Source of the DNA: Antedon mediterranea
Taxonomy: Eukaryota; Animalia; Echinodermata
Direction of reading: 5' to 3'
Assembly: GCF_964355755.1 (NCBI RefSeq)
Contig: NC_092672.1
Location: 434,001-498,000, forward strand
Length of the DNA: 64,000 bases
The notes below the pieces were generated by a model. That model had not been told where the DNA came from and ran no database searches. It saw only the letters and a list, made by a program, of their open reading frames with translations. The position numbers were made by a program, and so were the translations under genes. Positions 14,315-61,901 of the stretch are shown here, piece after piece (position 1 is the stretch's first letter; every line of letters starts with the position of its first letter).

Positions 14315-16192
14315 ATGTTGATCCGTATAAATGCCTGTCTTGTCTACATCTCATTCGTATTTGTTTTAGTCCTCTTCGATTCCGAAGCGATCAACAACGT
14401 AATAATAACGCCTCCATTGACTATTTCACCCGTGTTTAGCAAAATAGAGCTAAGTTGTATAGTACAAGAAGACATAGATGTGCATGCGGTGATTTGGTAT
14501 AAATTGAAGAACAAAATTATTGAAAATACAAATATACTTGAGTCTACCTATTCTGTGAATTGTAACTTTACGAGTAAAAGTTTCAAACTGTTAATTTATA
14601 AACCTGCAGGATTCAATGCTGGTATGTACAAATGTGAAGTGTGTTTCGATTTGGAAAGAAAAACGTGTGCATTTAGCAATGATGCAAATGTAACTGTATA
14701 CTCGATTCCTGCAAGTCCAAAATGCATTGATGTTGAACGTGATGTCAAAGAAGGGGACGCCATACCTTTCGGGTGTTTTATGATTGACGGTACACGCTTC
14801 CCAAGTCTCTTGGATGTGTCGATAAATTACAAAAACGGCACATCTCGACCAAACCTGGCGACCTCCTCAACAGACAAAAGCATATCACACAATATATCAA
14901 TATCTTACGATCTAAACAACGCTGTGTTGTGCTGCACTGCCCGATTTCCAATAATAAATACGACATTAAACTGTTTAAGTGGGCCACTTAATGTCAGTTA
15001 CTCTCCAAAAGTTCTTTCACTGACCTACTCAATTGTAGACTCCATCAATGACCCAAGCAACGCATCAATAACAATGAATATTACATCAAATCCTGAAGCC
15101 ACTGTGAGTTGGTCAAGGTTTGGCAGCAACTTTATCGTCTGTAACTCATCTGGAAGTTCAGAAAACGCTATGCTTTATGTGTGTAATATCTATAATATTA
15201 CAAACGGGACAGAAGTTATTGTTTCAGCTAATAATTCTTTTGGTAACCATAGTGAAGCGTTAACGTTAGTTTGGTCCCACAGAAGCAAAACAGACGCCGA
15301 TTACACTGTCAGACCACCTAAAATAACGTTGCGAATAAATAATCAACAAACGGAGATTAATGATATTAATAATAATACTACTGATTATCAAATTGATTAC
15401 AGTGAATATAATATGTTTACGATAACACTCATTATTGTATCTGTTTCTTCGCTGTTGTTGATTATTACCGTTATTATTGTTATAATAAAACTCAGAAAAA
15501 AGAGCAAACCTCAGAATCAAAATCTTAATGTAAATAGAGATTCATCCACACCGAACAGACAACACCCGATACAACATATCTACGAAACCAAACTATATGA
15601 AGTGTGTAGTGTCAATGAATCGATCTCAGGAGAGCTCAATGAACACAAACATGTAGACCTACCAATGCAAGTGGTGGAATTGCACAATACGGATTTAGAA
15701 GCAGAAAACATGTGCAACAACGAAACGACTGAAAATTTAACATACATTGAAATTGATCATCCAATAATTGAAAATAAAGTCGAAGTGATACGAACAATTG
15801 AAAGAGTTGATTACACAGAAATAGTTGACAAACATTCTACGGCTATAGCTGGAAAAAAGACAACACAAGATAAAAATTTAGGCCTAGTTCCTGATAGAAT
15901 TAGTTGCATCAACCAATGTAAGTTCGACCATATCACGATGAAGGATAATCAGGTAGAATGTTCACTTTGCCAAAAACAATACCATAGACATTGTGTAAAA
16001 ATGAAGCTAACCACGACATCCACAGTTTGGTTGTGTCCATATTGTAAAGATATACCGGGTACCATGTCGGATATGGCTAATAACATTGCTTCGTTGAGTG
16101 CAATGGTAAAACAACAGCAAGATATGATTGCAAATCAAAAATTAGCAATGCAGAGTATTTTAGAGAAACAATTAGAAAGTCATAAATACTAG
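14315..16192 (+). CDS. Single-exon IgSF receptor E1: 3 Ig-like domains, TM, Tyr motifs, ITIM-like pair, PHD finger, coiled coil
   Basis: ATG 14315 precedes the signal peptide; ELSC..IWY..AGMYKC; TM ITLIIVSVSSLLLIITVIIVII; HIYET, LYEV, LTYIEI, VDYTEI; C-x3-C..C-x2-C..H-x2-C..WLC-x2-C. Confidence 0.88.
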   Translation: MLIRINACLVYISFVFVLVLFDSEAINNVIITPPLTISPVFSKIELSCIVQEDIDVHAVIWYKLKNKIIENTNILESTYSVNCNFTSKSFKLLIYKPAGFNAGMYKCEVCFDLERKTCAFSNDANVTVYSIPASPKCIDVERDVKEGDAIPFGCFMIDGTRFPSLLDVSINYKNGTSRPNLATSSTDKSISHNISISYDLNNAVLCCTARFPIINTTLNCLSGPLNVSYSPKVLSLTYSIVDSINDPSNASITMNITSNPEATVSWSRFGSNFIVCNSSGSSENAMLYVCNIYNITNGTEVIVSANNSFGNHSEALTLVWSHRSKTDADYTVRPPKITLRINNQQTEINDINNNTTDYQIDYSEYNMFTITLIIVSVSSLLLIITVIIVIIKLRKKSKPQNQNLNVNRDSSTPNRQHPIQHIYETKLYEVCSVNESISGELNEHKHVDLPMQVVELHNTDLEAENMCNNETTENLTYIEIDHPIIENKVEVIRTIERVDYTEIVDKHSTAIAGKKTTQDKNLGLVPDRISCINQCKFDHITMKDNQVECSLCQKQYHRHCVKMKLTTTSTVWLCPYCKDIPGTMSDMANNIASLSAMVKQQQDMIANQKLAMQSILEKQLESHKY

Positions 16193-16227
16193 CGGTATTA
16201 TGATACAAATAACAATAATAGGCCCAC

Positions 16228-18350
16228 AAGTAATTTCATCTGCCGGGTTGGTGCCGGGTGGTTAATATTTCAGAAAATCCTGAAGCATCTGCAGTGTACT
16301 GGCGACGGTATGATGAACACAGAGAGACTTGTTTGCTTTCAAATCAAACGTTCGCCGTCGTGAACTTATGCGAAGCTGATGAGTCTAAACCCTTCAAAAT
16401 CTCCGGGCCCAGACAGCATACATCCACGTGTACTAAAAGAAGCAGCAGAAGTAATCGCTGATCCACTAACAAACATATTTAATAAATCCATAAAGGAAGG
16501 TATCATTCCTGACGACTGGAAGGTAGCTCATGTTTCCGCTATATTTAAGAAGGGCAACCCTACTAATCCAGGCAACTATAGGCCCATCAGTTTAACATCA
16601 GTGATATGTAAAGTAATGGAATCCTTAATCAGAGATGATCTAATGATGTTTCTGGAAGGTAACGATCTTATAAGTAACCATCAATATGGATTTAGAGCAG
16701 GCAGATCATGTGTAACACAACTGATAATGGTACTTGATAAATGGACAGCTATGATTGATGAAGAAGGTGGTGTAGACGTAGCATACCTGGATTTTAGCAA
16801 GGCCTTCGATACTGTCCCACACCAACGACTACTGAAAAAAATACAAGCATATGGAATTAATGGTAATCTTTTAAAATGGATAGAATGTTTCTTACTTGGA
16901 AGGAAGCGGCGTGTTGCAATTAAAGGAACCTTATCGTCTTGGTCTCATGTTACAAGCGGGATACCCCAAGAAAGTGTCCTCGGACCTATACTATTCTTGA
17001 TCTACATAAACGATCTACCCGATATATTAGAAACCCACACAGAGATGTTTGCTGATGATACCAAACTGTTCAATCACATTAAGAGTCGGGTTGACTGTGA
17101 AGCCCTCCAACGTGATATTGATGCTGCTAACGATTGGGCAAAAACTTGGCAGTTGAAGTTTAACGTCAATAAGTGCTGCATTATGCATCTTGGCAGGAAT
17201 TGTACAATTATACGATGTCAGTGGAGGCTTTGCAGGCAAAAGAGGAAGAAAAAGACTTGGGCGTTATATTTGACCAGACCCTCAAGTTCAGCAAACACGT
17301 TGGAATCGTCAGTAATAGAGTGATCAGACATACATTTAACTACCTTGATGAGGAAATGTTTGTTCCACTTTTTAAATCATTAGTGAGACCTCACCTTGAA
17401 TATGCTAATTGTGTATGGCCTCCGTTTCTTCGTAAAGATATAACATGCATTGAAAAAGTTCAAAGGAGGGCAACAAAAGCAATTCCTTCATTAAAAGACC
17501 TGGATTATACAGAATGCCTAAAACGACTAAATCTACCAACATTGGCCTTTAGAAGATTACGAGGAGATATGATTCAAGTTTTTAAAATGGTGACAGGCCT
17601 AAGTGGTAGTGGAATGCGTAACTTCTTCCCTATGAAAACATACGAGAGAAACCTAAGAAGACATAGATACACCATATACCGGTATAAGCGACGACCTAAA
17701 CTGGATATCCGCAAGTACAATTTTTCTTACAGAATTGTTAACCTATGGAATAGTCTACCAGAGGAAGCCGTTAACACCACCACAGTAAACGCCTTTAAAA
17801 ATAAACTTGATAAATTCATTGAAAGAAAATACAACAAATTTACTGTTATGGGATAAAGTGTATTGCAGAAGAATTTAAATCAAGGAAACGAATGAAAAAC
17901 AAAAACAAACAAAAACCATGCAGTGATGACTTGATGAAATTGGGAGGGCATGGCATGTACCATACAGAAATGTATGGTCTACTTACGAGCCCGACAAGAC
18001 AGGTGATTACAGGTGATTACAGGTGATATGTAAGACGTCTACTGGCATTCGGTATATTTGTTTCATTGATGACGACATACAAAATGGATCAATTATTGAA
18101 ATAATAGCTGAAAATGCTATTGGCAATGCATCTTATAATGTACAGCTTTTGTAGACACCGGTAACTCAGTTAGGCCAACAAACATGAGTACAGTTTCCAC
18201 TACTAAGTCTGCTAATATCACATTAACTGACCGTAAATTGGATTTTACACTTTTGTCAATAATATTGGCACGTGGTGGAGTTCTGGTTCTTTTTTATATG
18301 TTCTGTTTATCATGTGCCTCAAAAAGTTTATATTTTATTTGGTTAATTAA
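16228..18350 (+). pseudogene. Gene A2: 5'-truncated copy of A1 interrupted by a LINE
   Basis: 16228-16370 and 18027-18350 align with A1 4388-4862 (NPEASAVYWRRYDEHRE; ggcacgtggtgg TM). Confidence 0.85.
16371..18026 (+). mobile_element. 5'-truncated CR1-group LINE (RT domain, frameshifted)
   Basis: KSPGPD, NYRPISLTS, LDFSKAFD, FADD, RPHLEY motifs; (TTACAGGTGA)n 3' tail; TATG duplicated at both junctions. Confidence 0.93.
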
Positions 18351-20527: not shown

Positions 20528-22969
20528 CTGGATGAATACTGGCGAAGGACCACATGGGTATATGCGCCAGGGGGTGCGTCTCTCGGTGTGCAAACATCAA
20601 ACTTAAATGAATTTATTTTATTTTATTTATTTATTTTTTTTATTTATTAACCTCACAAAACTGACCAAACAATGACAAAAAACAAACAAACCAACATCCA
20701 TATATTAATATACATAAATCGATTGCTGCATTAAATTGAAGCCCATGACTTGGCAGTACATGCTATTAGGTGGTGCAATAGTGATTGTGCAATCATCTAA
20801 GTTTGTCCACAGTGTTGATTTAAAGGTTTGTAGTGATGATGCTTGTTTAATGCATTCTGGAAGTACATTCCATGCTCTTACAATACGCGGAAAAAAAGAA
20901 TATTTGTATTTGTCTATTGAGTATCTCGCATTTGACAATTTAAAATTATTGGAGTTTCGTAACACTCCTGTATGAATATTACTTGTCTGGCAACAAATCT
21001 TCTATGTTGAAGAAGTGGCCATTTTAACTGTTTAATAATCTCTGTAATGCTACTATTTCTGTCATAATTTTTTGTCACATATCTGGCTGCTTTGTTTTGA
21101 ATTGATTGTATTTTATTAATTTGCTTTAGTTGATATGGATCACATACTGTCTGCGCATATTCTAGTGTTGGTCGAACAAATGTCGTGTATGATTTATTTT
21201 TAATTTCAACAGAACAATTGTGAACATTTCTTCTTAACATGTTTAATGTATTATTTGCTTTTTTTTGTAATCTTGTCAATGTGAGCTCCCCATGTTAGGT
21301 TATGGGTAAGTTCCACTCCAAGGTATCTAAGTTGTTTTGTTGATTGAAGTGTAACATTATGCATTGTATATTCTATTTTTCTGTTACTTATTTTAATTAC
21401 TTGGCATTTGTTGGGATTAAATTTCATTTGCCATTTTTCAGACCATGCCACTACTTTATCAAGATCTTTTTGGAGTTGCTTGGCATCATTGTTATTTTCG
21501 ACAGATTTAAATAAAATACAATCATCAGCAAATAATTTCATTTCCGACGTAATATTTTCTGTAATGTCGTTAATGTAAAGTAAAAACATGAGAGGTCCTA
21601 AAACTGTACCCTGTGGTACTCCTGATTGTACCTTTACTTTATTGGATGTGTATCCATCCATAACTACCGATTGGGACCTATCAACTAACCATGATTTTAT
21701 CCAATTATGTGTACAACCTCTTTTTCCATAATAATTAACTTTGTATAAAAGCCTTTGATGAGGAACCGTATCAAATGCTTTTGAAAAATCAAGTACTATA
21801 CAATCGGTGATTTTCTTTACATCCATGTTTTTTGTTAATATTTCTATTGTGTTAATTAATTGAGATTCACAACTATGGCCTTGTCTGAATCCATGTTGAT
21901 TAATATTTAGTATATTTCTTTTTTCTAGGTGATCCATAACATTACTAAATATTACATGTTCCATAACATTACAAGTCACACATGTAAGAGACACAGGCCT
22001 ATAATTAACTGGTAATGATCTATCACCTTTTTTAAATAAGGCTGTTACATTTGCTTGCTTCCAATCATGTGGCACTTCCCCTTCCTCTAAAGACTGCTGA
22101 AATATTTTAGTCAGGATGGGTGCCACAATATCTGCATGGTCTTTAATAATTTGCGTCGGAATCATGTCTATACCAATTTCTTTTTTGGGATTAAGTTTAC
22201 TTAATAGTTTAAATATTCCATCTGTATTAATTTTATTTTCAGGCATCTTTGGATATGGACTTTGGCCTTTGTCGGGAATATTCCTAGTATCTTCATTGGT
22301 AAATACTTTCTGAAATTGTTTAGATAACATTAATTCTGCTTTATCCTTTCCTTCAGTTGCGAATTTACCATCTGTTTGCAGACATGAGATACCAACTCTA
22401 TCTCGTCTTAGACCCTTTACGAATGTATATAGTTTTTTAAGTGCACCACCACTATTTTCAATTTCATCGAACAAGCTTTCGACATACTGGTCATATGCCT
22501 TTTTAATTTCGATTGTTATTCTTTTTTGGATACTTCTATATTGTCCCAATCCTTAGCTGGTTTTGTTGTTCATGGCTTTTCTATATTTTTTTCTTCTAAC
22601 CCTCATAAGTTTTTTAACTTTATAGTTGATCCATGGTAGATTAGATTTATTACTTGTTTTTTTGGTTGGAACATGCTTGTTTACGATTTAGAAAATCCTG
22701 TTTTTAAAGCTTATCCAATTTTGATTTACATTCAAATGTTTCATATTATTAACAAAATCAACATGGAATTGAAGTGTTCTATTTCTTCCCTTATTTTATC
22801 TATATTTGCTTTTCTAAACAAGAAAATTTGCCTAGGTTTTTTAGGGTTGATTTTTGCTTTCATTTCATACTCTGCTGTTACTACATCATGCTTACATAAT
22901 CCTGGGTGTGTTTTAACATCAGTCAGTAGATCTGGAGAAGTGGTAAAAATGAGGTTCAGAGTATTTTGT
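20528..22969 (-). mobile_element. 5'-truncated CR1-group LINE with frameshifts
   Basis: NYRPVSLT, LDFSKAFD, GVPQGTVLGP, FADD, RPTLEY, YSFFPR; TTTGGAT at 20521-20527 and 22970-22976 (TSD); the empty site is visible near 6840. Confidence 0.93.
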
Positions 22970-29074: not shown

Positions 29075-31094
29075 ATGTTGCTCCGTATAAATGCCTGTCT
29101 TTCCTACATCTCATTCGTATTTGGTTTAGTCCTCTTCGAATCCGAAGCGATCAAGAACGTAACTATAACACCTTCATTGACTATTTCACCGGTGTTTAGT
29201 AAAATAGAGCTAAGTTGTATAGTACAAGAAGACATAGATGTGCATGCGGTGAATTGGTATAAATTCAAGAACAAAATTATTGAAAATAAAAATATACTTG
29301 AGTCTACTTATTCTGTTAATTGTAACTTTACGAGTAAAAGTTTCAAACTATTGATTGATAAATGTTTATTCTTATGGTGTTTTTATCCTTAAGGGCCACA
29401 ATGGAAATAAGTTTGACCTTTGGTTACTTTTTTGTGTTACCCTGAATTCATTCTTTGTATTTTTTTTGTTGTGTTATTTATGAATTCGAATAAAGAAATG
29501 AAATGAAATGAAAGCTGCAGGATTCAATTCAGGTATGTACAAATGTGAAGTATGTTTCGATTTGGAAAGAAAAACGTGTGCATTTAGCAATGTTGCAAAT
29601 GTAACTGTTTACTCGATTCCTGCAAGTCCATGCATTGATGTTGAACGTGACGTCAAAGAAGGGGAAGTCATACCTTTCGGGTGTTTTATGAGTGGCGGTA
29701 AACGCTTCCCAAGTTTCTTGGAGGTATAGATTATTTACAAAAATGGCACATCTCGACAAAATCTGGCGACCTCCTCAGCAGACAAAAGCATATCACACAA
29801 TATATCAATATCTTACGATCTAAACAACGCTGTGTTGTGCTGCACAGCCAGATTTCCAATAATAAATACGACATTAAACTGTTCAAGTGGGTCACTTAAT
29901 GTCAGTTACTCTCCAAAAGTTCTTTCAATGACCTACTCAATTGCAGACCCCATCAATGATCCAAGTAACGCATCAATAACATTGAATATTACATCAAATC
30001 CAGAAGCCACTGTGAGTTGGTCAACGTTTGGCAGCAACTTTATCGTCTGTAACTCATATGAAAGTTCAGAAAACGCTATGCTTTATGTGTGCAATATCTA
30101 TAATATTACAAACGGGACAGAAGTTATTGTTTCAGCTAATAATTCTTTTGGTAACCATAGTAAAGCGTTAACGTTAGTTTGGTTTCACAGAAGCAAAACA
30201 GACGCCGATTACACAGTCAGACCTAAAATAACGTTGCGAATAAATAATCAACAAACGGAGATTAATGATATTAATAATAATGCTACTGATTATCAAATTG
30301 ATTACAGTGAATATAATATGTTTACGATAGCACTCATTATTGTATCTGTTTCTTCGCTTGTGTTGATTATTACCATTGTTATTGTTATAATAAAACTCAG
30401 AAAAAAAAGCAAACGTCAGAATCAAAGTCTTAATGTAAATAGAGATTCATGCACACAAAACAGACAACGGCCGATACAACATATCTACGAAACCAAACTA
30501 TATGAAGTGTGTAGTGTCAATGAATCGGTTTCAGGAGAGCTCAATGAACACAACAATGTAGGCCTAACAATGCAAGTGGTGGAATTGCACAATACGGATT
30601 CAGAAGCAGAAAACTTGTGTGACAAAGAAACGACTGAAAATTTAACATACATTGAAATTGATCATCCAATAATTGAAAATAAAGTCAAAGTGATACGAAC
30701 AATTGAAAGAGTTGAATACACAGAAATAGTTGACAAACATTCTACGACTATAGCTGGAAAAAAGACACCACAAGATAACAATTTAGGCTTTATAACTAAT
30801 AGAATTAGTTGCATCAAACAATGTAAATTCGATCATATCACGATGAAGGAAAATCAGGTAGAATGTCCTCTTTGCCAAAAACAATACCATAGACATTGTG
30901 TAAAAATGAAGCTAACCACGACATCCACAGTTTGGTTGTGTCCATATTGTAAAGATATACCGGGTACCATGTCGGATATGGCTAATAACATTGCTTCGTT
31001 GAGTGCAATGGTAAAACAACAGCAAGATATGATTGCAAATCAAAAATTAGCAATGCAAAGTATTTTAGAGAAACAATTAGAAAGTGATAAATAA
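29075..31094 (+). pseudogene. IgSF receptor E2, disrupted by a 151-bp insertion and a nonsense codon; ITIM-like pair, PHD and coiled coil remain in ORF 29832-31094
   Basis: Collinear with E1 and E3; insertion 29363-29513; TAG at 29727 where E3 has TCG. Confidence 0.87.
29363..29513 (+). mobile_element. Short retroposed LINE/SINE 3' tail inserted in E2
   Basis: Absent in E3 (gataaa|gctgcagg); ends AATAAA(GAAAT)n. Confidence 0.7.
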
Positions 31095-32141: not shown

Positions 32142-32687
32142 AGATGTATTGTCCCTTGAAACACAAAAAAATGAAGGTCAAAATATTCTAAATTTAAAGT
32201 GGCCATATCAAAGCAATATTAAAGTTATTCACTTTAAGTCGAAAATTTGAGCCAAAAACAACAAGTTTACGTAATTAACAGGTAAATTAGTTTGATTACA
32301 TTTCATCTGGAAAATCGTCACGAGCGAAAGTAAACAAAGATTTCAAACCATGAGTACGCATTATGCATATGCTAAATTAGGATTGTTTACAACTGGTCAC
32401 GGTTAAGAAGGTATTTTCACACAGATCATGAGGAAATTTTATGATTATGCATACAGAGTAGCCAAACAAGCGCGTTTCATTATGGGATATGTTTTGATTG
32501 AAAACTTTGACTGGAAGTCAAAGTTATTTTTTTAACAAAAAAACGTCTGTATTTCAGTTAAATTTTTTTTTTTTCGAAAATTTTTGGGTGATACGGTAGT
32601 TAATAACTATTATGATACTTCAAAATGACCCACCTTTTTTCGAAATCTATTATTTTTTATTTTTTTGGAATTAGTCAAAGGGACAAT
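32142..32687. mobile_element. Kolobok-like MITE with the same TIR as 3228-3527; right TIR cut off at the DIRS junction
   Basis: TTAA|AGATGTATTGTCCCTT ... AAGGGACAAT, then an abrupt switch to GC-rich DIRS sequence. Confidence 0.7.
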
Positions 32688-34997
32688 CCCCGTTATACCT
32701 CGGAGCACAGATAAATCTCGTTACGGGCTTGGCATCTCCATCCCAACAACGCATCGCGTCTGCAATGAGTGCAGTACGCAATCTAATATCTGCTCATGCT
32801 CCGACGGCTTACGAATGGCTCAGAGCACTGGGTTGTCTGGCCAGCTTCGTTGCCTTAGTTCCGTATTGCCGGCTGCGTATGAGACCTTTACAGCTGCATC
32901 TGCTGGCTCATTACCGACCGCACTTAGACTCCCTACACAAAGTGGTCCTGTCGAATACATTCATTCAGACGCATCTCGAATGGTGGCTGGTGGAAGGCAG
33001 GTTGACTGTGTGAATGCCAATTCAAAAATCTCTGCCGGACGTCCGTATAGAGACGGACGCTGGGGCGGTTGCTCCAAGGCACTTCGCGCCTCCGGCCTTT
33101 GGATGGCCGAGGAGGCGCGATCCCACATCAACCTCCTAGAACTCTGGGCAGTCGAAAGGACCTTGAAGGCCCTTCGACATCACGTGGCCGGTCGTCACGT
33201 CCTTATCCATTCCGACAACTCAACAGTGGTAGCATATATAAATCGTCAAGGAGGCACGAAGTCCCCGACGTTATGCTACCACCTGTGGACGCTGATGTTG
33301 TGGTGCATAGACAACAACATCATGCTCTCGGCTGCCCACATTGCGGGCAGCCTCAACTTTGTTGCGGACGCTCTGACCCGACAAACACTATGTCCTACTA
33401 CGGAATGGCGCCTTCTACCCAGCATCGCCGCACTGATATTCGACCACTTCGGGCGGCCTCACATAGATCTGTTTGCGACGTCAGACAACACGCAGCTCCC
33501 GACCTTTTGCACACGGTTCCGGGATGCACGTGCGTGGGCGGTGGATGCCCTGTCCATACATTGGGACGGACTATGGGCGTATGCATTCCCACCAATATCA
33601 CTGATTCCAACTGTTCTGACGCGCATTCAGCGCCATCCTTGCCGGGTCCTTCTGATCGCCCCGGGCTGGGCTCGACAGGCGTGGTATCCACTGCTTCTCG
33701 ACCTGCTCTACGATCATCCCCTGCGTCTACCAGATCGCGTGGATCTGCTGACGCAGGGCCGAGCTCAGTTCCCACTGCGGAACTTACAATCCCTGCGCCT
33801 GACTGTGTATGGCCATTGTCAGGGATCAGCTCCGAGACTCAGGCATTCCAGATGGCCCTGCCGCCCTCGCGGCGAAATCTCGTCGGGAATCTACTCTTAC
33901 CGTCTACAATAGCCGACTAAAACACTTCTTTACATGGTGCAGGCGTCAACAGGTAGAGCCGGGGTCGATCACCCTCGGACAAGTTTGCGCCTTCCTGCAT
34001 TACCTATACGAGTCATGTCTTCAGGTCCGCACCATTTCGGGCTATAGATCCGCCATTGGCGCGATCACGCCAACACTTAAAGACGGTTCCTCTATGTCGT
34101 CATCTCCCGTTATCACTCAACTGATACGGGGAATGTTCAGAGAACGACCTCCAGTCAAGGTCTTGATTCCTCGATGGGATGTTAACGTTGTCCTAGCCGC
34201 ACTTACACGCCCGCCATTTGAGCCTATGAGTAAGGCTACTCTGTTGTATAATGTCTCGCTGAAAACGGCGTTCTTGCTCGCTTTAGCATCATGCAAACGC
34301 CGAGGCGAGTTGCACGCTCTCTCCTTGGAACCAGGTCATGTTAGGTTTGAGCGGGCCGGCGTGAGGCTAGTGTTTAGGAAAGATTTCCTTGCCAAGACAC
34401 AGACGTTAAAATTTTCGCCGCCTGCTGTGTTCGTTCCCACCATCACATCTTTTTCAGCGGCAGACGGAGATAAACTTTGGTGCCCGGTCAGGGCTCTTAA
34501 GTGGTATATCCACCACACTAAGACGATTAGAGACGGAGTGTCTCACCTCTTCGTCGCGTCTGTTCCTCCATACCGCGCGGCCGCTAAGGCAACAATAGCG
34601 AGATGGGTCGTTGCAACTATTCTTCAGACACACCGCCACCGGCACATATGCACCAAGTGCGCGCGGTTTCCACTTCGTGGGCGTTGTTCTCGGGCGTCCC
34701 TGTAGCTGACATCATGGAAGCGGCGTGGTGGCGAACACAGTCGACATTCACCTCACACTACCTGTCGGACATCTCCGCTAACGTGGCACCAGTGGCAACG
34801 GCGATACTAAAGCCTCGACTATAGGTATGTATAAGTCAATTTCCTAACTTGTCACCCGCCGCCGACTAGATTCCTAGTCCGGTGCTACACTGGCTATTGT
34901 CGGGTTTATCCAGGTAAGCAGGCACGTAATAGACTACACAAACCAGAAATGGTGTTGGTAGTCTATAAGTGCTGCTTACCTGGATAAACACCCGCCC
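32688..34997 (+). mobile_element. 5'-truncated DIRS1-like tyrosine-recombinase retrotransposon (RT C-terminus/RNase H, methyltransferase-like domain, overlapping YR)
   Basis: HINLLEL, SDNSTVVAYINRQGG, ADALTR (RNase H); IDLFAT, YAFPP (MT-like); RRGEL, CPVRAL, HQVR, FTSHY (YR, frameshifted near 34630); hairpin 34902-34993 like ICR/ITR; high GC. Confidence 0.93.
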
Positions 34998-38802: not shown

Positions 38803-40580
38803 TCATCTTTTAATATCTCTAAACGTGAGATTTATTCTTGGTAGCTTGATGGATTGATTTTTAGGCAGTGAATGGTGGCAGTACTCATTAGTGGGATAAT
38901 TCATCATTAATAATGTACCGTGTTTAAGATCAACAGTTACTGGCTCAATAATTTTTTTGGGACTCTTACCTCGCGCATCACCATGTCGAAATCTAAACAT
39001 ACGTGTTTGCCCCAATGATACAGAGGCGATTGGACTAAAGTGATTCATGTCTTTCTCATCATCTTTGTGTTCGCCAATGTAATCACTTCCAGTAGCACAT
39101 CTATAGAGTAACGACAAAATACAATAGAAAATAAAATATTTTAAGATGAGACTAAAAAAACCCCAATTATCCATTAAAACAATCTTATCTAGCAAATTGC
39201 AGAAATCATCCAGTATGAATACTGATAGTGTTCATTCGTTTTAGAGGTAAACGATGGACCCTTTTAATCAATAAATAAAATAAATAAATAAAATAATAAA
39301 CAAGAATATTTACCGGTTGACCAAAACAAAATTGAAGTAATGTCCTGTAACCGATTTTAAAAGTACGCGGAGATCTTTCAGGAATGGTGGGCACGGTAAA
39401 GCTGGTACTGTATTGCCTGAATATTTGTAAGTTAAGCCAGAATCGCCAAACGAAAAACCTGCAGAGGGGAAACCATACAAAGAAAGTCATTTATTATTTG
39501 GCGAGATGTAAATGAACACGCCAAAAATAAAATAATTTACAGTAAAAGAGTAAATTAAACCTATAGCTACACAACGGTAAATTATGGAAAAAAACAAAGG
39601 AAACGATATACAAGTAATTAACAAGTCATTAATACAAAACCACGGATAAAAACATAATGGAACTAACCTGTTTCCTAGGAATATTAAACCACTTTCACCT
39701 TTGCAAGATCTCCGGTAAAATAGTCAATCTCTTCCTCACATTTTTTAAACAATGTATCGGCTGCTCCTTTATCAAGAAGTTGAAGGTAATCACAGTCTAA
39801 ATTTTCCCCTATTATCTTTTGCACCGATAACTTATCAGGGGGTAGCAATTGATGTTCTGAATTGAATAAACGTCCTCCATTATCGTTTTTGTCAACACCC
39901 CCTTCAACAGTAGCCGCATTATCATTACCAACCTCCTCAATCATCTTTTGTATTTCACCGTGTTTTTCAATTATCTTGAACCACTGACTCTTTGGAAGGT
40001 TTACACCTTTTTTACCGGGTTTAAACTTGCCTCCTTCTTCAGACTGGTAATAGCGGCGAATACACACAAATTGTTCTTCTTTCCAGTTACTAACTACCAC
40101 ATGAATTATGTCCGAAAGTGGGATTCTTACTGCCTCCACCATGTTAATGTCTCTTTGTAAGTCTTCCAGTGACTGGAGAATTAAATTGATATTGTTAAAA
40201 AGTTTTTGCCACAGCAGAACGGGTAAATTAATATACCTAGAGGTCCAGGTTTGAAGGCACCATATTCTTCCGTTTGGTAATACTCTCTGAGACAAACATA
40301 AACATCGTCACCCCATCGTTGGGCCACTACATGGCGTTTTTCAGACAAGAAAATCCGATTCTTTGAAGTTATGGAAATCTTTGATACATCATCGGTCATT
40401 ACGGCAAAATACTGGGCGCTCATTCCTGAGGCTTTACTCAAACCGTTACACTCATCTGTTTGACCGTTAAAAGATTTTCTAGGATCCAATATATTCGCTG
40501 ATGTAGAAGCCATCGTTGGTATTTTTAAACTGCTACACTCGTCAGCTTGACCATTAGAACTCCCCATAACTCTTTTCATA
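38803..40580 (-). pseudogene. Spliced, frameshifted PC4-PC4-AlkBH2-like fusion gene (exons about 40580-39668, 39458-39314, 39100-38803)
   Basis: Two PC4-like domains (VCLREYY..KPGPLG-INL..WQKL; VCIRRYY..KPGKKGVNL..QW), then GENLDCDY..EEIDYFTGDLAKV, WFNIPRKQ|FGDSGLTYKYSG..FNFVLVNR|GSDYIGEHKDDE..HSLP..RINLTFR; GT-AG introns; about 3 frameshifts. Confidence 0.82.
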
Positions 40581-40923
40581 GTCCTACGGGCTTTCTCACC
40601 AATTGCTAATTTCGGAGTAGGTAAACAGTTGAAACTCTTGTTTATAGACTGTAGAGAGTTACTGAGAGTGAAACGAATGATCGTTGACAACTCTGAACGA
40701 TTACGTTTGAATCAGGTCCGATATATACAGTTATTAATTGATTTTTCCTGTCAATTGTTTCCCTGCAACATGTGCTAATTAAAGCATTATTAACTTTTTT
40801 TGTTTGTTTCCCTTCAATCGTTTTCCATGACACGTGCGAAACACAATTTAAATGTCCTCGCACAACAGCTTAAAAATAGTCTCTGAATTAATCAGGGTAT
40901 TTACAAGAAAATAAACGAAATGT

Positions 40924-44929: not shown

Positions 44930-47566
44930 ATGTTGCTCCGTATAAATGCCTGTCTTTCCTACCTCTCATTCGTATTTGTTTTAGTCCTCTTCGAATCCGA
45001 AGCGATCAAGAACGTAACTATAACACCTTCATTGACTATTTCACCGGTGTTTAGTAAAATAGAGCTAAGTTGTATAGTACAAGAAGACATAGATGTGCAT
45101 GCGGTGATTTGGTATAAATTCAAGAACAAAATTATTGAAAATAAAAATATACTTGAGTCTACTTATTCTGTTAATTGTAACTTTACGAGTAAAAGTTTCA
45201 AACTATTGATTGATAAAGCTGCAGGATTCAATTCAGGTATGTACAAATGTGAAGTATGTTTCGATTTGGAAAGAAAAACGTGTGCATTTAGCAATGTTGC
45301 AAATGTAACTGTTTACTCGATTCCTGCAAGTCCATGCATTGATGTTGAACGTGACGTCAAAGAAGGGGAAGTCATACCTTTCGGGTGTTTTATGAGTGGC
45401 GGTAAACGCTTCCCAAGTTTCTTGGAGGTATCGATTATTTACAAAAATGGCACATCTCGACAAAATCTGGCGACCTCCTCAGCAGACAAAAGCATATCAC
45501 ACAATATATCAATATCTTACGATCTAAACAACGCTGTATTGTGCTGCACTGCCAGATTTCCAATAATACATACGACACTAAAGTCTTCAAGTGGGCCACT
45601 TAATGTCAGCTACTCTCCAAAAGTTCTTTCAATAACCTACTCAATTGCAGACTGCATCAATGATCCAAGTAACGCATCAATAACAATGAATATTACATCG
45701 AATCCAGAAGCCACTGTGAGTTGGTCAAGGTTTAGCAAAAACTTTATCGTCTGTAACTCATATGACAGTTCAGAAAACGCTATGCTTTATGTGTGTAATA
45801 TCTATAATATTACAAACGGGACAGAAGTTATTGTTTCAGCTGAAAATTCTTCTGGCAACCTTAGTAAAGCGTTAACGTTAGTTTGGTCTCACAAAACATT
45901 TACAGAATATAGTACAGCCACATCCACAACTTTCAAGAATTATAACGTTGATTATGTAACTGCTAATGATGGTTTACCTAATTATGACAATGAGCATATC
46001 TTTACGATGACGATAAGTGTAGCATCTCTTGCATTAGTTGTGGTCGTTATCATTATTGTTATAGTAAAAATCAAATGGATTGCCCACATAAAAAGTCGTC
46101 AACAAAGTGTTCGCCTTGGTGCATCAGCCTACACTACAACCGAACATTACTACGAAACAGAACAGTACCAAGAAATCCCATTTGACACAATCCATCAGAG
46201 TGTTCATACCCCTTACTCAAGAACAGAGCCACACTCAACAAGAGAAAACATATATGAAATGGAACAGCAACAAGAAAGCCCATTGGACAGAAGTGGTCGA
46301 GGCCGTGTTCATACATCTTACTCAAGAGAAGAGCCACACTCAACAAGAGAAAACATATATGAAATGGAACAGCAACAAGAAAGCCCATTGGACAGAAGTG
46401 GTCGAGGCCGTGTTCATACACCTTACTCAAGAACAGAGCCAAACTCAACAAGAGAAAACATATATGAAATGGAACAGCACCAAGAAAGCCCATTGGACAG
46501 AAGCGGTCGAGGCCATGTTCATACATCTTACTCAAGAGAAGAGCCACACTCAACAAGAGAAAACATATATGAAATGGAACAGCACCAAGAAAGCCCATTG
46601 GACAGAAGCGGTCGAGGCCGTGTTCATACCCCTTACTCAAGAACAGAGCCACACTCAACAAGAGAAAACATATATGAAATGGAACAGCACCAAGAAAGCC
46701 CATTGGACAGAAGCGGTCGAGGCCATGTTCATACATCTTACTCAAGAGAAGAGCCACACTCAGCAAGAGAAAACATATATGAAATGGAACAGCACCAAGA
46801 AAGCCCATTGGACAGAAGCGGTCGAGGCCATGTTCATACATCTTACTCAAGAGAAGAGCCACACTCAACAAGAGAAAACATACATGAAATGGAACAGCAC
46901 CAAGAAAGCCCATTGGACAGAAGCGGTCGAGGCCATGTTCATACATCTTACTCAAGAGAAGAGCCACACTCAACAAGAGAAAACATATATGAAATGGAAC
47001 AGCACCAAGAAAGCCCATTGGACAGAAGCGGTCGAGGCCATGTTCATACCCCTTACTCAAGAGAAGAGACACACTCAACAAGAGAAAACATATATGAAAT
47101 GGAACAGCACCAAGAAAGCCCATTAGACAGAAACCATCGAAGCGTTGATATCCCTTCCTTAAGAAAAGACGCTAACTCAACAAGGGAAAATATCTACGAA
47201 AATCATCTGAATAACCGATCACGACCCCCACTTGATGGTAGCCGTGTGAATGTTTCTGCTTCAAGGGAAAATTCAGATTTAGCTAAAATTCAATCGTATC
47301 GACCAGCACACCTGACCACCATTAACGATTATGCTACTGATAGAGAAGGTAAACCACTAGATACAAACATAGATCCAGCAGCAGCAGATGACATGATTGA
47401 CAATGAAAACGATTTGATTGAACGAAAAACATATAATGCTGAAAACCTGACATATCTTGAAATAGATCATTCAAGAATAAACAATACAAGACTCCAAGTA
47501 ATAAGAACAACTGAAAATGTAGATTACGCAGATGTTGTGTTTGATAATTTAAAAAAATCTCCTTAA
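44930..47566 (+). CDS. Single-exon IgSF receptor E3: E-type ectodomain, TM, 35-aa Tyr repeat array, C-terminal ITIM-like pair, no PHD
   Basis: Ectodomain nearly identical to E2; TM ISVASLALVVVVIIIVIV; (HSTRENIYEMEQHQESPLDRSGRGHVHTSYSREEP)n; LTYLEI and VDYADV. Confidence 0.9.
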   Translation: MLLRINACLSYLSFVFVLVLFESEAIKNVTITPSLTISPVFSKIELSCIVQEDIDVHAVIWYKFKNKIIENKNILESTYSVNCNFTSKSFKLLIDKAAGFNSGMYKCEVCFDLERKTCAFSNVANVTVYSIPASPCIDVERDVKEGEVIPFGCFMSGGKRFPSFLEVSIIYKNGTSRQNLATSSADKSISHNISISYDLNNAVLCCTARFPIIHTTLKSSSGPLNVSYSPKVLSITYSIADCINDPSNASITMNITSNPEATVSWSRFSKNFIVCNSYDSSENAMLYVCNIYNITNGTEVIVSAENSSGNLSKALTLVWSHKTFTEYSTATSTTFKNYNVDYVTANDGLPNYDNEHIFTMTISVASLALVVVVIIIVIVKIKWIAHIKSRQQSVRLGASAYTTTEHYYETEQYQEIPFDTIHQSVHTPYSRTEPHSTRENIYEMEQQQESPLDRSGRGRVHTSYSREEPHSTRENIYEMEQQQESPLDRSGRGRVHTPYSRTEPNSTRENIYEMEQHQESPLDRSGRGHVHTSYSREEPHSTRENIYEMEQHQESPLDRSGRGRVHTPYSRTEPHSTRENIYEMEQHQESPLDRSGRGHVHTSYSREEPHSARENIYEMEQHQESPLDRSGRGHVHTSYSREEPHSTRENIHEMEQHQESPLDRSGRGHVHTSYSREEPHSTRENIYEMEQHQESPLDRSGRGHVHTPYSREETHSTRENIYEMEQHQESPLDRNHRSVDIPSLRKDANSTRENIYENHLNNRSRPPLDGSRVNVSASRENSDLAKIQSYRPAHLTTINDYATDREGKPLDTNIDPAAADDMIDNENDLIERKTYNAENLTYLEIDHSRINNTRLQVIRTTENVDYADVVFDNLKKSP
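46201..47200 (+). repeat. 105-bp coding minisatellite, about 9.5 copies
   Basis: agagaaaacata recurs at 46241, 46346, 46451, 46556, 46661, 46766, 46871, 46976 and 47081; degenerate copy near 47183. Confidence 0.95.
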
Positions 47567-57100: not shown

Positions 57101-58424
57101 AAAGTAAAATCTCTAACGCCTTATCTAAAAACCACCATACTATTGGCTTATTTTTGGACTTGTCTAAAGCATTTGACACTATTAACCACACAATTCTTTT
57201 AACTAAACTTAGTCACTATGGAATCCGTGGAACTCCTCTATCTCTACTTTCTAACTATCTTCAAAACAGACAACAAATCACCTCTTTCGGCTCCTACTCC
57301 TCAGAAGTTCTTCCCATAACATGCGGTGTGCCCCAAGGATCAATTCTTGGTCCTCTACTTTTTCTCATCTATGTCAACGACATCATCAACGCTTCCAACT
57401 CTTTTGAATACGTCCTGTTTGCCGACGACACGAACATTTTTTCCTCCCATCCTGACTACAACACCTTAACTAGAATTTTTAATAAGGAAATAAAACATAT
57501 ATCTCACTGGCTTAAACTTAATAGACTCTCACTAAATATAAACAAAACTGAATATATACACTTTTCTCCAAATAGAACACACAATGACAATCAAAACACA
57601 ATCCATATAGAAAACACTCCTATCAAAAGGGTTACTTGTTCTCAGTTCCTTGGTGTAACTATAGATGATAACTTAAACTGGAAAACCCATATAACAAATA
57701 TAGCTAATAAAATTTCAAAAAACATCGGTGTCTTAAAAAAACTTAAATATATTCTACCCTCTAATATCCTCTTTTCTTTATATAACACATTAATTTTACC
57801 TTATCTATCCTATTGTAACATTGCTTGGGGAATTACAGATACTAAAAATAAAACTCTCTGTCCATGGGCTTCCACACATATTTCTAAATTAGACAAACTC
57901 TTTAAACTCCAAAAACGGGCTATTCGCATTTGTACCAATTCTCACTATATAGCCCACACAAAGTCCCTTTTCTTTAAACTTAATACCCTAAACATCTTCG
58001 ATATTAACAAATTACAAATCGCCACATTCATGCACAGATATTCAAACAATCAACTTCCAAATATTTTCAAACATTTCTTCATCAAAAATAATGAATTTCA
58101 CAACTACAATACAAGAAACGCCAACAATTACGCCACAATAAATTTAACCCATAACAAAATCCGGAATTCTATCAAATACCATGGTCCTCTAGTATGGAAT
58201 AATTTAAGTCAATCCTTACTAAATACTAATAACTTAAATACATTCAAATCCAAATATAAACAATTCCTTTTATCACAATACAGATCGTATTAATAAAACT
58301 TTTTCATCAAAAAATTTTTTTTTCTCACCTCCTGCAAGTATATATTATGATAGTACATATACTATACCCTTTACGTTTGTCCTCTTGTTGTGTTTGTATT
58401 GTCCTGTAGCGTAATTGTGTATAT

Positions 58425-60050: not shown

Positions 60051-61901
60051 ATGGAGGTTAAGCTTCAGTTTATTTTATTTGTGTTAATAAGTTTATCATG
60101 TGCAGATATCGGTAAAACAAGTAATATTGCTCTAACACCTTTAAAGAACAATGTTATTAAAGGTGATGCTGTGACTTTGACTTGTGAAGTGGATCTGAGC
60201 AAGGCAGTTTATTACACTTTATCGTGGTACAAGGATAATACTGAAGTGAGTATAAATTCAACAGTAATAGTTTACAAGGGTTTTTTGACTGTCGAGTGCA
60301 ACTTTACGAGTAATACGCATAAACTGATAATTGAACAAGCTGATACACACCACACAGGATCATACACATGTAAAGCATGTGCTTCCAAACCTCAATGTCT
60401 GGAAAGTCAAACAGCTGATGTTTCTGTATATGAACAACCAACTTCTCCCACATGTATACAAAATACTTATGATGTTAAAGAAGATGAAATGATAGAGTTT
60501 AGTTGTGGTGGCACATTTGCAAATATCCCTAACTCGTTAGAAATGTTGCTTTACACAGGAGGAGGAGGAGGACAAGGAACAATCCTACAAGAAAAGACTT
60601 TCAGCAGTAGATATGATGGTCAGCTGATACAACTCAATAAACTGGTTAATGTGACTTATGATTTGAACAAAGCAACAATTTACTGTGAAGCCACATTCTC
60701 AGTTCCAAATACAACAACAAACTGTACAAGTGGGTCGCTTAATGTCAGCTTCTCTCCGAAAATTATTTCAACTAAGGTAGATTACTCAATCACTGACTCA
60801 ATCAATAACGCATCTATAACAGTTAATATCTTATCAAATCCAGAGGCAATTGTGACTTGGTCAAATATTGATGACAACTTCGTCTCTTGTTATAGAATGT
60901 CTGAAAACTCTATTCTTTGTATATGCAATATTTACAACGCTACAAATGGGACTAACATTTATATTTTAGCTAATAATAGTTTTGGTAATATTTGTCAGCC
61001 GCTAACTCTGGTTTGGAAACGAAAACTTGCAGATTACACTACGCTTACATCTTTGATAACGACCCAGAAGGATCAAACAACCGATATCAGTGATAATGAT
61101 GAATATGAAACTGATTATGATGTTATGATAACTATATCTCTTACATCGGCTGGGGTAGTTATTATTGTTATTATTATCACTATTGTCATAATATATGTAC
61201 GAAAGATAAGACAACCTAATAATCGAAGCATTCATCTTAATGCCAGTTCATCACCACCTAACTTCACACAAACAATGACACAACATATCTATGAAACACA
61301 ACTATATGAAATAAACAGTGCTGATGCATTTGTATCAAGAGAAGTCGATGAACACAAAAGTGAACAAATGCGATTGGAAGCAACCAACATAGATCTCGGA
61401 GCAGATTGCGAACGTTTTGAGAGTGAAATGACAGAAAATTACATTGAAATTGATCATCCGGTGAGGGAAAATGAAATCGGAGTGATAGGAACAATTGAAA
61501 GAGTTGATTATGCAGAGGTGATAAACAAAAAACATACATCTGCACAAACTGATAGTAGTGAGACACAAAATAAAAGGGAAATATCTAATACCACGGGCAG
61601 AATTAGTTGCATCCAACAATGCAAGTTTGACCATGTTATGGTGAAAGATAAACAACTGGAATGTTCGTTTTGCCAAAAACAGTATCACAAACTTTGTCTT
61701 TCAATACATCCAACGAGAACCGCGACACCCACAGACGTGTGGCTGTGTCCAAATTGTAAGAATGTGTCGGGTGCAATTTCGGATATGGCTAGTAATATTG
61801 CTTCATTGACAGCAATGGTCAAAGAACAGAAAGATTTGATTGCAAACCAACAATTAGTAATTCAAAGTATTTTAGCACAACCAAATTCAGAAAATGATTA
61901 A
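60051..61901 (+). CDS. Single-exon IgSF receptor E4 (older E paralog) with Tyr motifs, PHD finger and coiled coil
   Basis: ATG 60051 signal peptide; VTLTC..LSWYK..HTGSYTC; TM ITISLTSAGVVIIVIIITIVIIYV; HIYET, LYEI, NYIEI, VDYAEV; CIQQC..CSFC..HKLC..WLCPNC. Confidence 0.9.
   Translation: MEVKLQFILFVLISLSCADIGKTSNIALTPLKNNVIKGDAVTLTCEVDLSKAVYYTLSWYKDNTEVSINSTVIVYKGFLTVECNFTSNTHKLIIEQADTHHTGSYTCKACASKPQCLESQTADVSVYEQPTSPTCIQNTYDVKEDEMIEFSCGGTFANIPNSLEMLLYTGGGGGQGTILQEKTFSSRYDGQLIQLNKLVNVTYDLNKATIYCEATFSVPNTTTNCTSGSLNVSFSPKIISTKVDYSITDSINNASITVNILSNPEAIVTWSNIDDNFVSCYRMSENSILCICNIYNATNGTNIYILANNSFGNICQPLTLVWKRKLADYTTLTSLITTQKDQTTDISDNDEYETDYDVMITISLTSAGVVIIVIIITIVIIYVRKIRQPNNRSIHLNASSSPPNFTQTMTQHIYETQLYEINSADAFVSREVDEHKSEQMRLEATNIDLGADCERFESEMTENYIEIDHPVRENEIGVIGTIERVDYAEVINKKHTSAQTDSSETQNKREISNTTGRISCIQQCKFDHVMVKDKQLECSFCQKQYHKLCLSIHPTRTATPTDVWLCPNCKNVSGAISDMASNIASLTAMVKEQKDLIANQQLVIQSILAQPNSEND

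What the first reader, a model, noticed from the sequence alone, without database searches (positions are those of the whole stretch)
15905..16192. Cell-surface Ig receptor with a cytoplasmic PHD finger plus coiled coil
Seen: E1 ends in CINQC..CSLC..HRHC..WLCPYC (C4HC3 PHD pattern) followed by a heptad helix. The same module is in E2 (30810-31094) and in the much more diverged E4 (61608-61901) with all eight ligands kept, which argues for purifying selection. Known: PHD fingers are normally nuclear histone readers, and a PHD followed by a coiled coil is the N-terminal layout of ORF1 in some CR1/L2 LINEs. I know of no Ig-TM-ITIM-PHD receptor. Inference: a retrotransposon-derived domain was captured in frame and domesticated, as an oligomerisation module, an integrated decoy, or a cleavable nuclear-signalling tail.
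Basis: partly seen in the sequence, partly recalled or inferred. Interest (0 to 1): 0.9.

Follow-up and report, generated by a model that had tools for sequence, protein, structure and literature searches.

The report
Immune-type receptor with retrotransposon-derived tail
In what is likely a feather star, cell-surface immunoglobulin receptor genes end in a zinc-finger-plus-coiled-coil piece whose closest relatives are retrotransposon (LINE) ORF1 proteins; the finger has stayed under purifying selection, and the piece likely pairs the receptor's inhibitory-type tails rather than reading histones.

Summary
Confirmed. E1 (14315-16192) and E4 (60051-61901) are intact single-ORF genes: signal peptide, three Ig-like domains, TM helix, ITIM-type tail, C4HC3 PHD finger, 45-residue helix, stop. 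E2 has the same tail but is broken upstream. The module is LINE-derived. Of the 20 best HMMER hits among 1.84 billion proteins, 16 carry an SGNH esterase behind the PHD and coiled coil (most also CCHC knuckles); the best (E 1.5e-27, 48% identical) is from the crinoid Antedon mediterranea. One hit's PHD is identical to ORF1 of a metagenome contig that continues into an endonuclease-RT ORF2. Host PHDs score far lower. Paralog E3 ends just after the same ITIMs, so the ORF1 piece was likely appended in frame to an ITIM receptor and lost its esterase. PHD dN/dS is 0.18-0.30 (p<=0.0013); the coiled coil is less clearly constrained. Histone-reader residues are absent. A model supports a parallel dimer (0.36 vs control 0.13). 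Best reading: a domesticated dimerising, protein-binding cap. Expression of the fusion is not shown, and the donor clade (probably not CR1/L2) is unresolved. I found no Ig-TM-PHD protein in the searches run.

The parts
14315..16192 (+). E1: intact single-ORF receptor gene, 625 aa (signal peptide, 3 Ig-like domains, stalk, TM, tyrosine/ITIM tail, PHD, coiled coil)
14315..14392 (+). E1 predicted signal peptide (hydrophobic N-terminus, judged by eye)
14396..15274 (+). E1 ectodomain, three Ig-like domains. Pfam Ig hits are on domain 1 of paralogs E4 and E3; domains 2-3 are assigned from Cys/Trp patterns and alignment
15419..15490 (+). E1 transmembrane helix (21-residue hydropathy 3.06), followed by a basic KLRKK stretch
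15737..15823 (+). Two ITIM-consensus motifs (LTYIEI, VDYTEI); paralog E3 ends shortly after the second
15824..15904 (+). Linker holding the fusion junction; the match to the ORF1 profile begins near 15845
15905..16045 (+). LINE ORF1-derived C4HC3 PHD finger of E1
16052..16192 (+). ORF1-derived coiled coil, 14 residues (two heptads) shorter than in P0003, then stop
29075..31094 (+). E2: broken copy (148-base insertion 29363-29510, in-frame TAG 29727-29729) with intact tail, PHD (30810-30950) and coiled coil
44930..47566 (+). E3: paralog with an 89%-identical ectodomain and a long tandem-repeat tyrosine tail; ends after the shared ITIM pair; no PHD
60051..61901 (+). E4: intact diverged receptor gene, 616 aa, 42% identical to E1 overall and about 62% in PHD+coiled coil; PHD at 61608-61757
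16371..18026 (+). RT-encoding LINE fragment 3' of E1, inserted into a copy of another Ig gene; not the donor's remains

Best explanation
E1 and E4 are intact immunoglobulin-type receptor genes whose cytoplasmic tail ends in a PHD finger and coiled coil that were likely captured from a LINE retrotransposon's ORF1, and this piece likely serves as a dimerising, protein-binding cap that holds two ITIM-bearing tails side by side at the membrane. Steps: (1) shown: one ORF joins Ig domains, TM, ITIM motifs, PHD and helix. (2) Shown by homology: the module's nearest relatives are PHD-CC-esterase-CCHC ORF1 proteins, one of them linked to an endonuclease-RT ORF2. (3) Inferred: a LINE copy cut off just upstream of its PHD landed in sense and in frame at the end of an ITIM receptor like E3 (or a chimeric retrocopy formed); a stop after the coiled coil dropped the esterase and knuckles, two heptads were lost, and the gene then duplicated into E1/E2 and E4. 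(4) Shown: the PHD has since evolved under purifying selection. (5) Predicted: the helix forms a parallel dimer. (6) Inferred, untested: dimerisation presents the phosphorylated ITIMs to SH2-domain phosphatases, and the PHD binds a non-histone cytoplasmic partner or stabilises the dimer head.
For: Origin: the HMMER profile of the module gave 89 hits at E <= 1e-3 among 1.84e9 proteins; the best is P0003, Antedon mediterranea XP_071963312.1 (1.5e-27; 48% identical to E1 over 111 columns). Of the 89 hits, 56 were scanned with Pfam: 39 of 56 (16 of the top 20) carry Lipase_GDSL_2 and 0 of 56 an Ig family. The profile of these relatives hits ZfL2-1 ORF1 esterase 4c1b best in the PDB (5.9e-15). In locus L003, ORF1 (PHD, esterase, CCHC) is followed in frame after a TAG by an ORF2 with Exo_endo_phos, RVT_1 and zf-RVT; its PHD is identical to hit P0076. 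The best host PHD in the PDB scores 22-27 bits per domain. Trees without host rows put E1+E2+E4+P0003 on one branch: SH-aLRT/UFBoot 99.2/92 with 44 rows; UFBoot/SH-aLRT 100/99 with 20 rows. Single capture: the receptors share the junction region, a 14-residue deletion and the stop position; in the coiled coil 15 sites are receptor-shared, against 7 shared by E1 and P0003 and 4 by E4 and P0003. Direction: E3 carries the same ITIM pair and stops about 10 residues later, and no ORF1 remnant lies behind E1-E4. Selection, E1 vs E4: PHD dN/dS 0.18 (bootstrap CI 0.07-0.45); 0.25 and 0.30 with transition weights 2 and 3 (p <= 0.0013); 0.22-0.35 without ligands and Trp (p <= 0.008). Neighbouring stalk+TM is 1.06-1.35, and PHD dS is not lowered. 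Dimer: score 0.36, best of 3 controls 0.13; runs agree in at least 69% of contacts; partner pLDDT at least 78; contacts lie on heptad a/d positions 58-93 of the module. The mark was reached by 21 of 30 solved homo-pairs and 0 of 23 single chains in microbes; in animals by 7 of 16.
Against: Expression of the fused protein is not shown. The coiled coil, on which the dimer idea rests, is the less constrained half: dN/dS 0.45 (p 0.042) unweighted, but 0.61 and 0.71 (p 0.14, 0.24) with transition weights, so the PHD must be doing something not yet explained. The dimer score only just passes the mark and may come from memory of coiled coils (1 of 7 eukaryotic pairs without an older solved relative passed). 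Receptor monophyly is moderate (about 89/88), and AU tests do not reject E1+E2+P0003 (p 0.565 quick tree; p 0.196). PHD sites are star-like (6 receptor-shared, 7 E1+P0003, 6 E4+P0003), and a P0003-like contig in X1 is 84/98 bases identical to E1 where E4 is 73/98, so partial gene conversion from the donor family could inflate the PHD's apparent conservation. In the 91-row PHD-only tree, 3 of 5 host multi-PHD rows (long branches, 1.4-2.6) nested beside E1/E2; I read this as long-branch attraction and left host rows out of later trees. No crinoid host PHD was available as a control. Only 1 of 3 full ORF1 loci was long enough to show ORF2. E4 matches the ITIM consensus at one site only.
Confidence: 0.55

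Rival explanations
1. Integrated decoy or sensor: the receptor's ORF1 piece would co-assemble with the cognate LINE's ORF1p (or bind a host or pathogen factor that targets ORF1p), tethering retroelement particles to the membrane or coupling transposon activity to ITIM signalling.
For: The piece kept is the self-assembly part of ORF1p (coiled-coil dimerisation of ZfL2-1 ORF1p: PMC3905857, passages). A P0003-like relative with the undeleted coiled coil is present in runs of this organism. The PHD is more constrained than the helix. Genome defence has been proposed for L1TD1 (PMC4161310, search listing only).
Against: The receptor coil lacks two heptads and has drifted from P0003 (44-48% identity). 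E4 has diverged from the donor in the PHD loop, which a bait tracking its element should not do. Hetero-assembly was not tested.
Confidence: 0.12
2. Cleavable nuclear signalling tail: ectodomain shedding and gamma-secretase cleavage would free a tail that enters the nucleus and reads histone H3 with its PHD.
For: PHD fold; basic juxtamembrane stretch in E1; PHD fingers are mostly H3 readers (PMC3241642, passages).
Against: H3K4me3 readers need an invariant cage Trp; the residue two before the His ligand (position assignment recalled) is Gln in E1, E2, E4 and P0003, while 31 of the 84 matched rows have Trp there. H3K4me0 readers need an acidic cluster before C1 and a hydrophobic residue before C3: E1 has one Asp not kept in E2 or E4, and Glu precedes C3 in all three. 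The basic stretch is weaker in E4.
Confidence: 0.1
3. The PHD is the functional unit as a membrane-proximal adaptor (binding a signalling or trafficking protein or acidic lipids), and the coiled coil is a tolerated leftover that need not dimerise.
For: Constraint is significant on the PHD even without its ligands, but not on the coil once transitions are weighted. PHD fingers can bind non-histone proteins.
Against: The coil keeps a clean heptad pattern and an in-register two-heptad deletion, and the model passes as a dimer above controls.
Confidence: 0.17
4. Neutral passenger or unexpressed extension: the ORF1 piece is not translated with the receptor or has no function, and its conservation comes from gene conversion with LINE copies.
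For: E2 is a pseudogene yet keeps the module (it is recent: dS about 0.08 from E1). E1's PHD loop is closer to a P0003-like contig than to E4.
Against: The frame is open through about 230 tail codons in two genes whose synonymous sites differ by about 0.5-1 substitutions per site. E1 and E4 share a deletion and 15 coil residues absent from P0003. PHD dS is as high as in flanking regions.
Confidence: 0.06

Closest known systems
LINE ORF1p fusion proteins: Lyosin (L1 ORF1p-MYL4), L1-RFX5, NUP42-L1, USP4-L1 (PMC12129022; abstract and section 11 read); L1TD1 (PMC4161310; listing only)
   Same: Host gene fused to an ORF1p-derived coding piece as first or last part; Lyosin is under purifying selection.
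   Different: Those are vertebrate, from L1-type ORF1 (CC-RRM-CTD), and the fusions are alternative exons on proteins that are not receptors. Here an invertebrate single-ORF gene has a PHD-CC piece of an esterase-type ORF1 on the cytoplasmic tail of a cell-surface Ig receptor, spread by tandem duplication.
ORF1p of esterase- or PHD-bearing non-LTR retrotransposons: ZfL2-1, CR1/L2 types (PMC4120745, passages incl. Table 1), RTEX (PMC3905857, passages)
   Same: PHD, coiled coil, SGNH esterase and CCHC knuckles are all described ORF1 modules; ZfL2-1's coil dimerises.
   Different: The donor type combines PHD+CC+esterase+2xCCHC, a combination absent from Table 1 of PMC4120745. The receptor keeps only PHD+CC. 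That paper (2014) says it knew of no functional study of LINE PHDs.
ITIM-bearing IgSF receptor arrays: Hydractinia Alr (PMC9546547, passages), vertebrate LILRB/Siglec/CD22-type receptors (PMC11999971, passages)
   Same: Clustered single-pass Ig receptors with diverse tails, some with [ILVS]xYxx[ILV] motifs.
   Different: No PHD is mentioned in either paper (0 occurrences). Alr domains are encoded exon by exon, while these genes are single ORFs. No sequence homology to Alr was tested.
MARCH/K3/K5 membrane RING-CH (C4HC3, 'PHD/LAP') ubiquitin ligases (recalled, no call)
   Same: C4HC3 zinc finger on a membrane protein.
   Different: Their finger is an N-terminal RING variant before two TM helices, with no Ig domains. 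Here the fold matches PHD structures and RINGv was not among the Pfam hits at E <= 1.
Integrated-decoy NLRs of plants (PMC9528088, listing only)
   Same: A foreign domain fused into an immune receptor.
   Different: Decoys mimic effector targets in intracellular sensors; no such role is shown here.

Membership tests
PHD finger (PF00628) | C4HC3 ligands with PHD spacing | tested here: met
   8 of 8 ligands in E1, E2, E4
PHD finger (PF00628) | Pfam gathering score | tested here: inconclusive
   E4 module 25.8 bits passes 24; E1 module 20.6 does not
PHD finger (PF00628) | PHD fold | tested here: met
   Model pLDDT 87.4; best Foldseek rows are PHD structures (probability up to 1.0, rmsd 1-3 A, E 0.022 or weaker)
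H3K4me3-reading PHD | Aromatic cage with invariant Trp | tested here: not met
   Gln two before the His ligand in all three copies; requirement from PMC3241642, position assignment recalled
H3K4me0-reading PHD | Acidic cluster before C1 and hydrophobic residue before C3 | tested here: not met
   One non-conserved Asp; Glu before C3
LINE ORF1p-derived sequence | Nearest homologs are ORF1 proteins linked to an endonuclease-RT ORF2 | tested here: met
   ORF2 linkage seen in 1 of 3 full-ORF1 loci (the other two contigs end within 200 bases of the stop)
Intact LINE ORF1p / LINE copy | Esterase, CCHC knuckles and downstream ORF2 present | tested here: not met
   Profile match ends at the stop in all three copies; no remnant in the flanks
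CR1/L2 clade donor | RT phylogeny places the linked ORF2 in CR1 or L2 | tested here: inconclusive
   L003 RT is 23-31% identical to the window's RTs, which are 32-45% identical to each other; no clade references were available
ITIM-bearing IgSF inhibitory receptor | Signal peptide, Ig domains, single TM | tested here: met
   (signal peptide judged by eye)
ITIM-bearing IgSF inhibitory receptor | [ILVS]xYxx[ILV] motifs in the tail | tested here: met
   E1 2, E2 2, E3 2, E4 1 (consensus)
ITIM-bearing IgSF inhibitory receptor | Phosphorylation and SHP/SHIP recruitment | not testable with these tools
   needs biochemistry
Domesticated ORF1p fusion gene (Lyosin-type) | Purifying selection on the ORF1-derived part | tested here: met
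   PHD dN/dS 0.18-0.30, p <= 0.0013; coiled coil alone not significant with transition weighting
Domesticated ORF1p fusion gene (Lyosin-type) | Fusion transcript expressed | tested here: inconclusive
   No run is on record as RNA; no piece in X1 bridges tail to PHD
MARCH/RING-CH ligase | N-terminal RING-CH before two TM helices | tested here: not met
   C-terminal finger, one TM, PHD-type structural matches; family definition recalled

The most novel reading that the evidence does not exclude
A crinoid immune-type surface receptor carries a bait taken from its own genome's LINE: its ORF1-derived PHD-coiled coil co-assembles with the live element's ORF1p and so traps retrotransposon particles at the membrane or turns transposon activity into an ITIM signal, an animal integrated sensor of a retroelement.
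Probability: 0.1. Interest if true: 0.92.

Novelty: new variant of a known kind. Interest (0 to 1): 0.74.

Why it matters
Few LINE ORF1 domestications are described, and the fusion cases I read about are vertebrate L1-type exons on proteins that are not receptors. This would be a case in an invertebrate, from a different ORF1 type, and it builds an Ig-TM-ITIM-PHD architecture that my searches did not find elsewhere. It shows a route by which a duplicating receptor array gains a new signalling tail. It also isolates a LINE PHD finger, whose function was unstudied as of a 2014 survey (PMC4120745), in a host protein with a natural control (E3: same ectodomain, no PHD), which makes the function directly testable.

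Tried and rejected
Expression: no RNA holder is listed for E1 (X1 is only guessed to be RNA). In X1, contigs cover 14598-15721 and 15965-16196, but none bridges them; this is no evidence either way. Whether X1 is RNA, and whether E4 is transcribed, stays open. No whole genome is held for this window, so genome-wide paralog and donor counts could not be made. Word-index homolog searches found nothing for the E1 PHD region (41 candidates) or full-length E4 (7719 candidates). One search missed P0003, which is in the collection and within its length range, so these blanks are weak; one search found only P0003 (1 of 583 candidates). E1 and E4 are not in the collection as exact sequences. Atlas: the module gave PHD/PHD_Pygo clusters at 0.90; full E4 gave only Ig clusters at 0.81-0.83, below the 0.9 mark, with no PHD listed. 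A fold on the 3-row alignment was poor (pLDDT 63). VIA-align matched only the helix to generic coils (Z <= 6.2), which is uninformative. The LINE right behind E1 was rejected as the donor's remains: it sits inside a copy of another Ig gene, is absent behind E2 and E4, and has no ORF1 match. An esterase remnant in the flanks was not found. Literature searches for the architecture: 0 papers with all six terms; nothing relevant in the listings. The library lacks most subscription papers, and InterPro, Repbase and Dfam could not be queried. Kapitonov and Jurka 2003 is not held. No supplements were read; those of PMC4120745 (ORF1 logos) may bear on the donor type. Four look-ups of earlier findings returned nothing. 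Dropped rows: 2 non-PHD hits (P0034, P0042) before the tree; all host rows and many fragments before (44 rows; 20 rows).

Full report
Observation. E1 is one ORF of 625 codons (14315-16192) and E4 one of 616 codons (60051-61901). Each reads signal peptide, three Ig-like domains, stalk, one TM helix, a tail of about 235 residues with tyrosine motifs, a C4HC3 finger, a heptad helix and a stop. All eight ligands are kept in E1, E2 and E4. E2 is broken upstream by a 148-base insertion ending in a TGAAA repeat and by an in-frame TAG; a loose end matches the insertion. A 378-base contig with no differences bridges the ITIMs to the PHD start in two runs of one sample. With a 37-row alignment the module folds at pLDDT 87.4; the best Foldseek rows are PHD fingers, though none reaches E 0.001.

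Setting. The window holds a tandem array of about eleven single-ORF Ig-TM genes and broken copies, all on the + strand, between Prp19, PC4/2OG-oxygenase and pelota sequences and several retroelements. Of the ten ORFs examined, six have tails of 9-41 residues; only the E type has long tyrosine tails. E3 shares E1's ectodomain (89% identity) and the ITIM pair, but stops about 10 residues after the second ITIM and has no PHD remnant behind it. The organism is probably a crinoid: this is inferred only from the nearest homologs.

Origin. A profile of the three modules scored against 1.84 billion proteins gave 89 hits at E <= 1e-3. The best, by 13 orders of magnitude, is Antedon mediterranea XP_071963312.1 (P0003), 48% identical to E1; rank 5 is from Anneissia japonica. 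I scanned 56 of the 89 with Pfam: 39 carry an SGNH/GDSL esterase (16 of the top 20; the other four are fragments of 172-211 aa) and none an Ig family. Many end in CCHC knuckles. None of the 89 resembles the window's ectodomains (best E 0.43). The profile of these relatives hits the ZfL2-1 ORF1 esterase first in the PDB. A metagenome scan returned 17 loci, 3 with the whole ORF1. In L003 it is followed by an ORF2 with endonuclease, RT and zf-RVT, and its PHD is identical to hit P0076. One hit's cluster has 22 members, those listed lying on many large contigs, as a dispersed repeat would. Host PHDs in the PDB score 22-27 bits per domain. So the module is a LINE ORF1 fragment. The donor clade is open: the L003 RT is 23-31% identical to the window's RTs; its motifs look RTE/RTEX-like to me (recalled), and PMC3905857 (passages) lists RTEX among esterase-bearing clades.

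One capture. Trees of PHD+coil without host rows join E1, E2, E4 and P0003 with strong support and E1+E2+E4 with about 89/88. AU tests do not reject E4 lying outside E1+E2+P0003, and in a PHD-only tree three long-branch host rows fell next to E1/E2. Stronger signs of a single event are the shared junction region, the shared stop position, a shared loss of 14 residues (two heptads), and 15 coil sites shared by E1 and E4 against P0003. The ORF1 match starts near 15845, just after the second ITIM, and ends at the stop, with no esterase remnant. The simplest history (inferred) is an in-frame, sense insertion of a 5'-truncated LINE, or a chimeric retrocopy, at the end of an E3-like receptor, followed by truncation and duplication. 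A relative of the donor exists in this organism. A contig in X1 matches E1 at 84 of 98 bases; 4 of its 5 listed amino-acid changes go to P0003's residue; and it continues unlike E1 where the deletion begins. X2 shows the same loose end. Its depth in X1 (155 vs 6-8 for E1-like contigs) cannot be read as expression or copy number.

Selection. E1 vs E4 dN/dS is 0.18 for the PHD (CI 0.07-0.45), 0.45 for the coil, 0.49 for the ectodomain and about 1.1 for stalk+TM. The PHD result survives transition weighting (0.25-0.30, p <= 0.0013) and removal of ligands and Trp (0.22-0.35, p <= 0.008); the coil's does not (p 0.14-0.24). Caveat: some conversion of E1's PHD from the donor family is not excluded.

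Function. Histone reading is unlikely. The cage Trp position holds Gln, there is no conserved acidic cluster before C1, and Glu precedes C3 (requirements from PMC3241642 passages; Trp position recalled). The two-copy model passes narrowly: 0.36 vs best control 0.13, at least 69% contact agreement, pLDDT at least 78, contacts on heptad positions; the mark was reached by 21 of 30 microbial homo-pairs and 0 of 23 single chains, but by only 7 of 16 animal pairs, and may reflect memory of coiled coils. ZfL2-1 ORF1p's coil is a dimer (PMC3905857 passages). I therefore favour a dimerising cap that pairs ITIM tails for SH2-phosphatase recruitment, with the PHD binding a non-histone partner (0.55). The LINE origin alone I put near 0.9. 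Rivals: PHD adaptor with an idle coil (0.17), decoy for the cognate ORF1p (0.12), nuclear tail (0.10), passenger (0.06).

Comparison and novelty. ORF1 fusions are known from vertebrate L1: Lyosin, L1-RFX5, NUP42-L1 and USP4-L1 (PMC12129022, abstract and section 11). Clustered ITIM Ig receptors are known from Hydractinia (PMC9546547 passages). The combination here, a PHD-coil from an esterase-type ORF1 on an Ig-ITIM receptor, was not found in the protein searches or literature searches. Those searches are limited, and InterPro, Repbase and Dfam could not be queried. It works like a domesticated ORF1 fusion and meets that kind's origin and selection tests; expression is untested. Verdict: real, new variant of a known kind, interest 0.74.

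Noticed in passing
window 44930-47566 (E3): Receptor with an ectodomain 89% identical to E1 but a poorly alignable stalk/TM and a 499-residue tail with about ten 35-aa repeats, each with an ENIYEM tyrosine motif: ectodomain/tail shuffling reminiscent of paired receptors.
   Followed up: partly
window 3693-61901: Array of about eleven intronless 3-Ig TM genes and broken copies, with two partly duplicated blocks (about 4-16 kb and 16-31 kb); most have tails under 45 residues.
   Followed up: partly
L001-L003 and hits P0003-P0024: A widespread marine LINE ORF1 type (PHD-CC-SGNH esterase-2xCCHC, often with an N-terminal Cys cluster); in L003 ORF2 follows in frame directly after the TAG. This combination is not in Table 1 of PMC4120745.
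   Followed up: partly
proteins P0055, P0082: ORF1-like proteins with a NADAR domain between the esterase and the CCHC knuckles.
   Followed up: no
run X1 record 6 and X2, over window 15965-16062: P0003-like PHD contig (853 bases, depth 155 in X1; same variants at depth about 8 in X2): could be a low-copy, possibly domesticated ORF1 gene rather than an active element.
   Followed up: partly
runs X2-X4, over window 15937-16163: Contigs of further PHD-coil paralogs not in this window (e.g. 28 differences over 197 bases, no gaps), so the receptor family is probably larger.
   Followed up: no
window 32629-34821: GC-rich element with RNase H-like and tyrosine-recombinase-like ORFs in overlapping frames (DIRS-like; weak Pfam hits).
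   Followed up: no
window 38806-40711 (-): Two PC4-like ORFs next to a 2OG-Fe(II) oxygenase ORF; possibly one gene or mobile-element cargo.
   Followed up: no
window 16371-18026 (+), 20700-22552 (-), 56782-58290 (+): Three RT-encoding LINE fragments; the first interrupts an Ig gene copy, the last lies between pelota-like exons and E4.
   Followed up: partly
window 29363-29510: 148-base insertion in E2 ending in TGAAA repeats, like the 3' end of a retroposon.
   Followed up: partly
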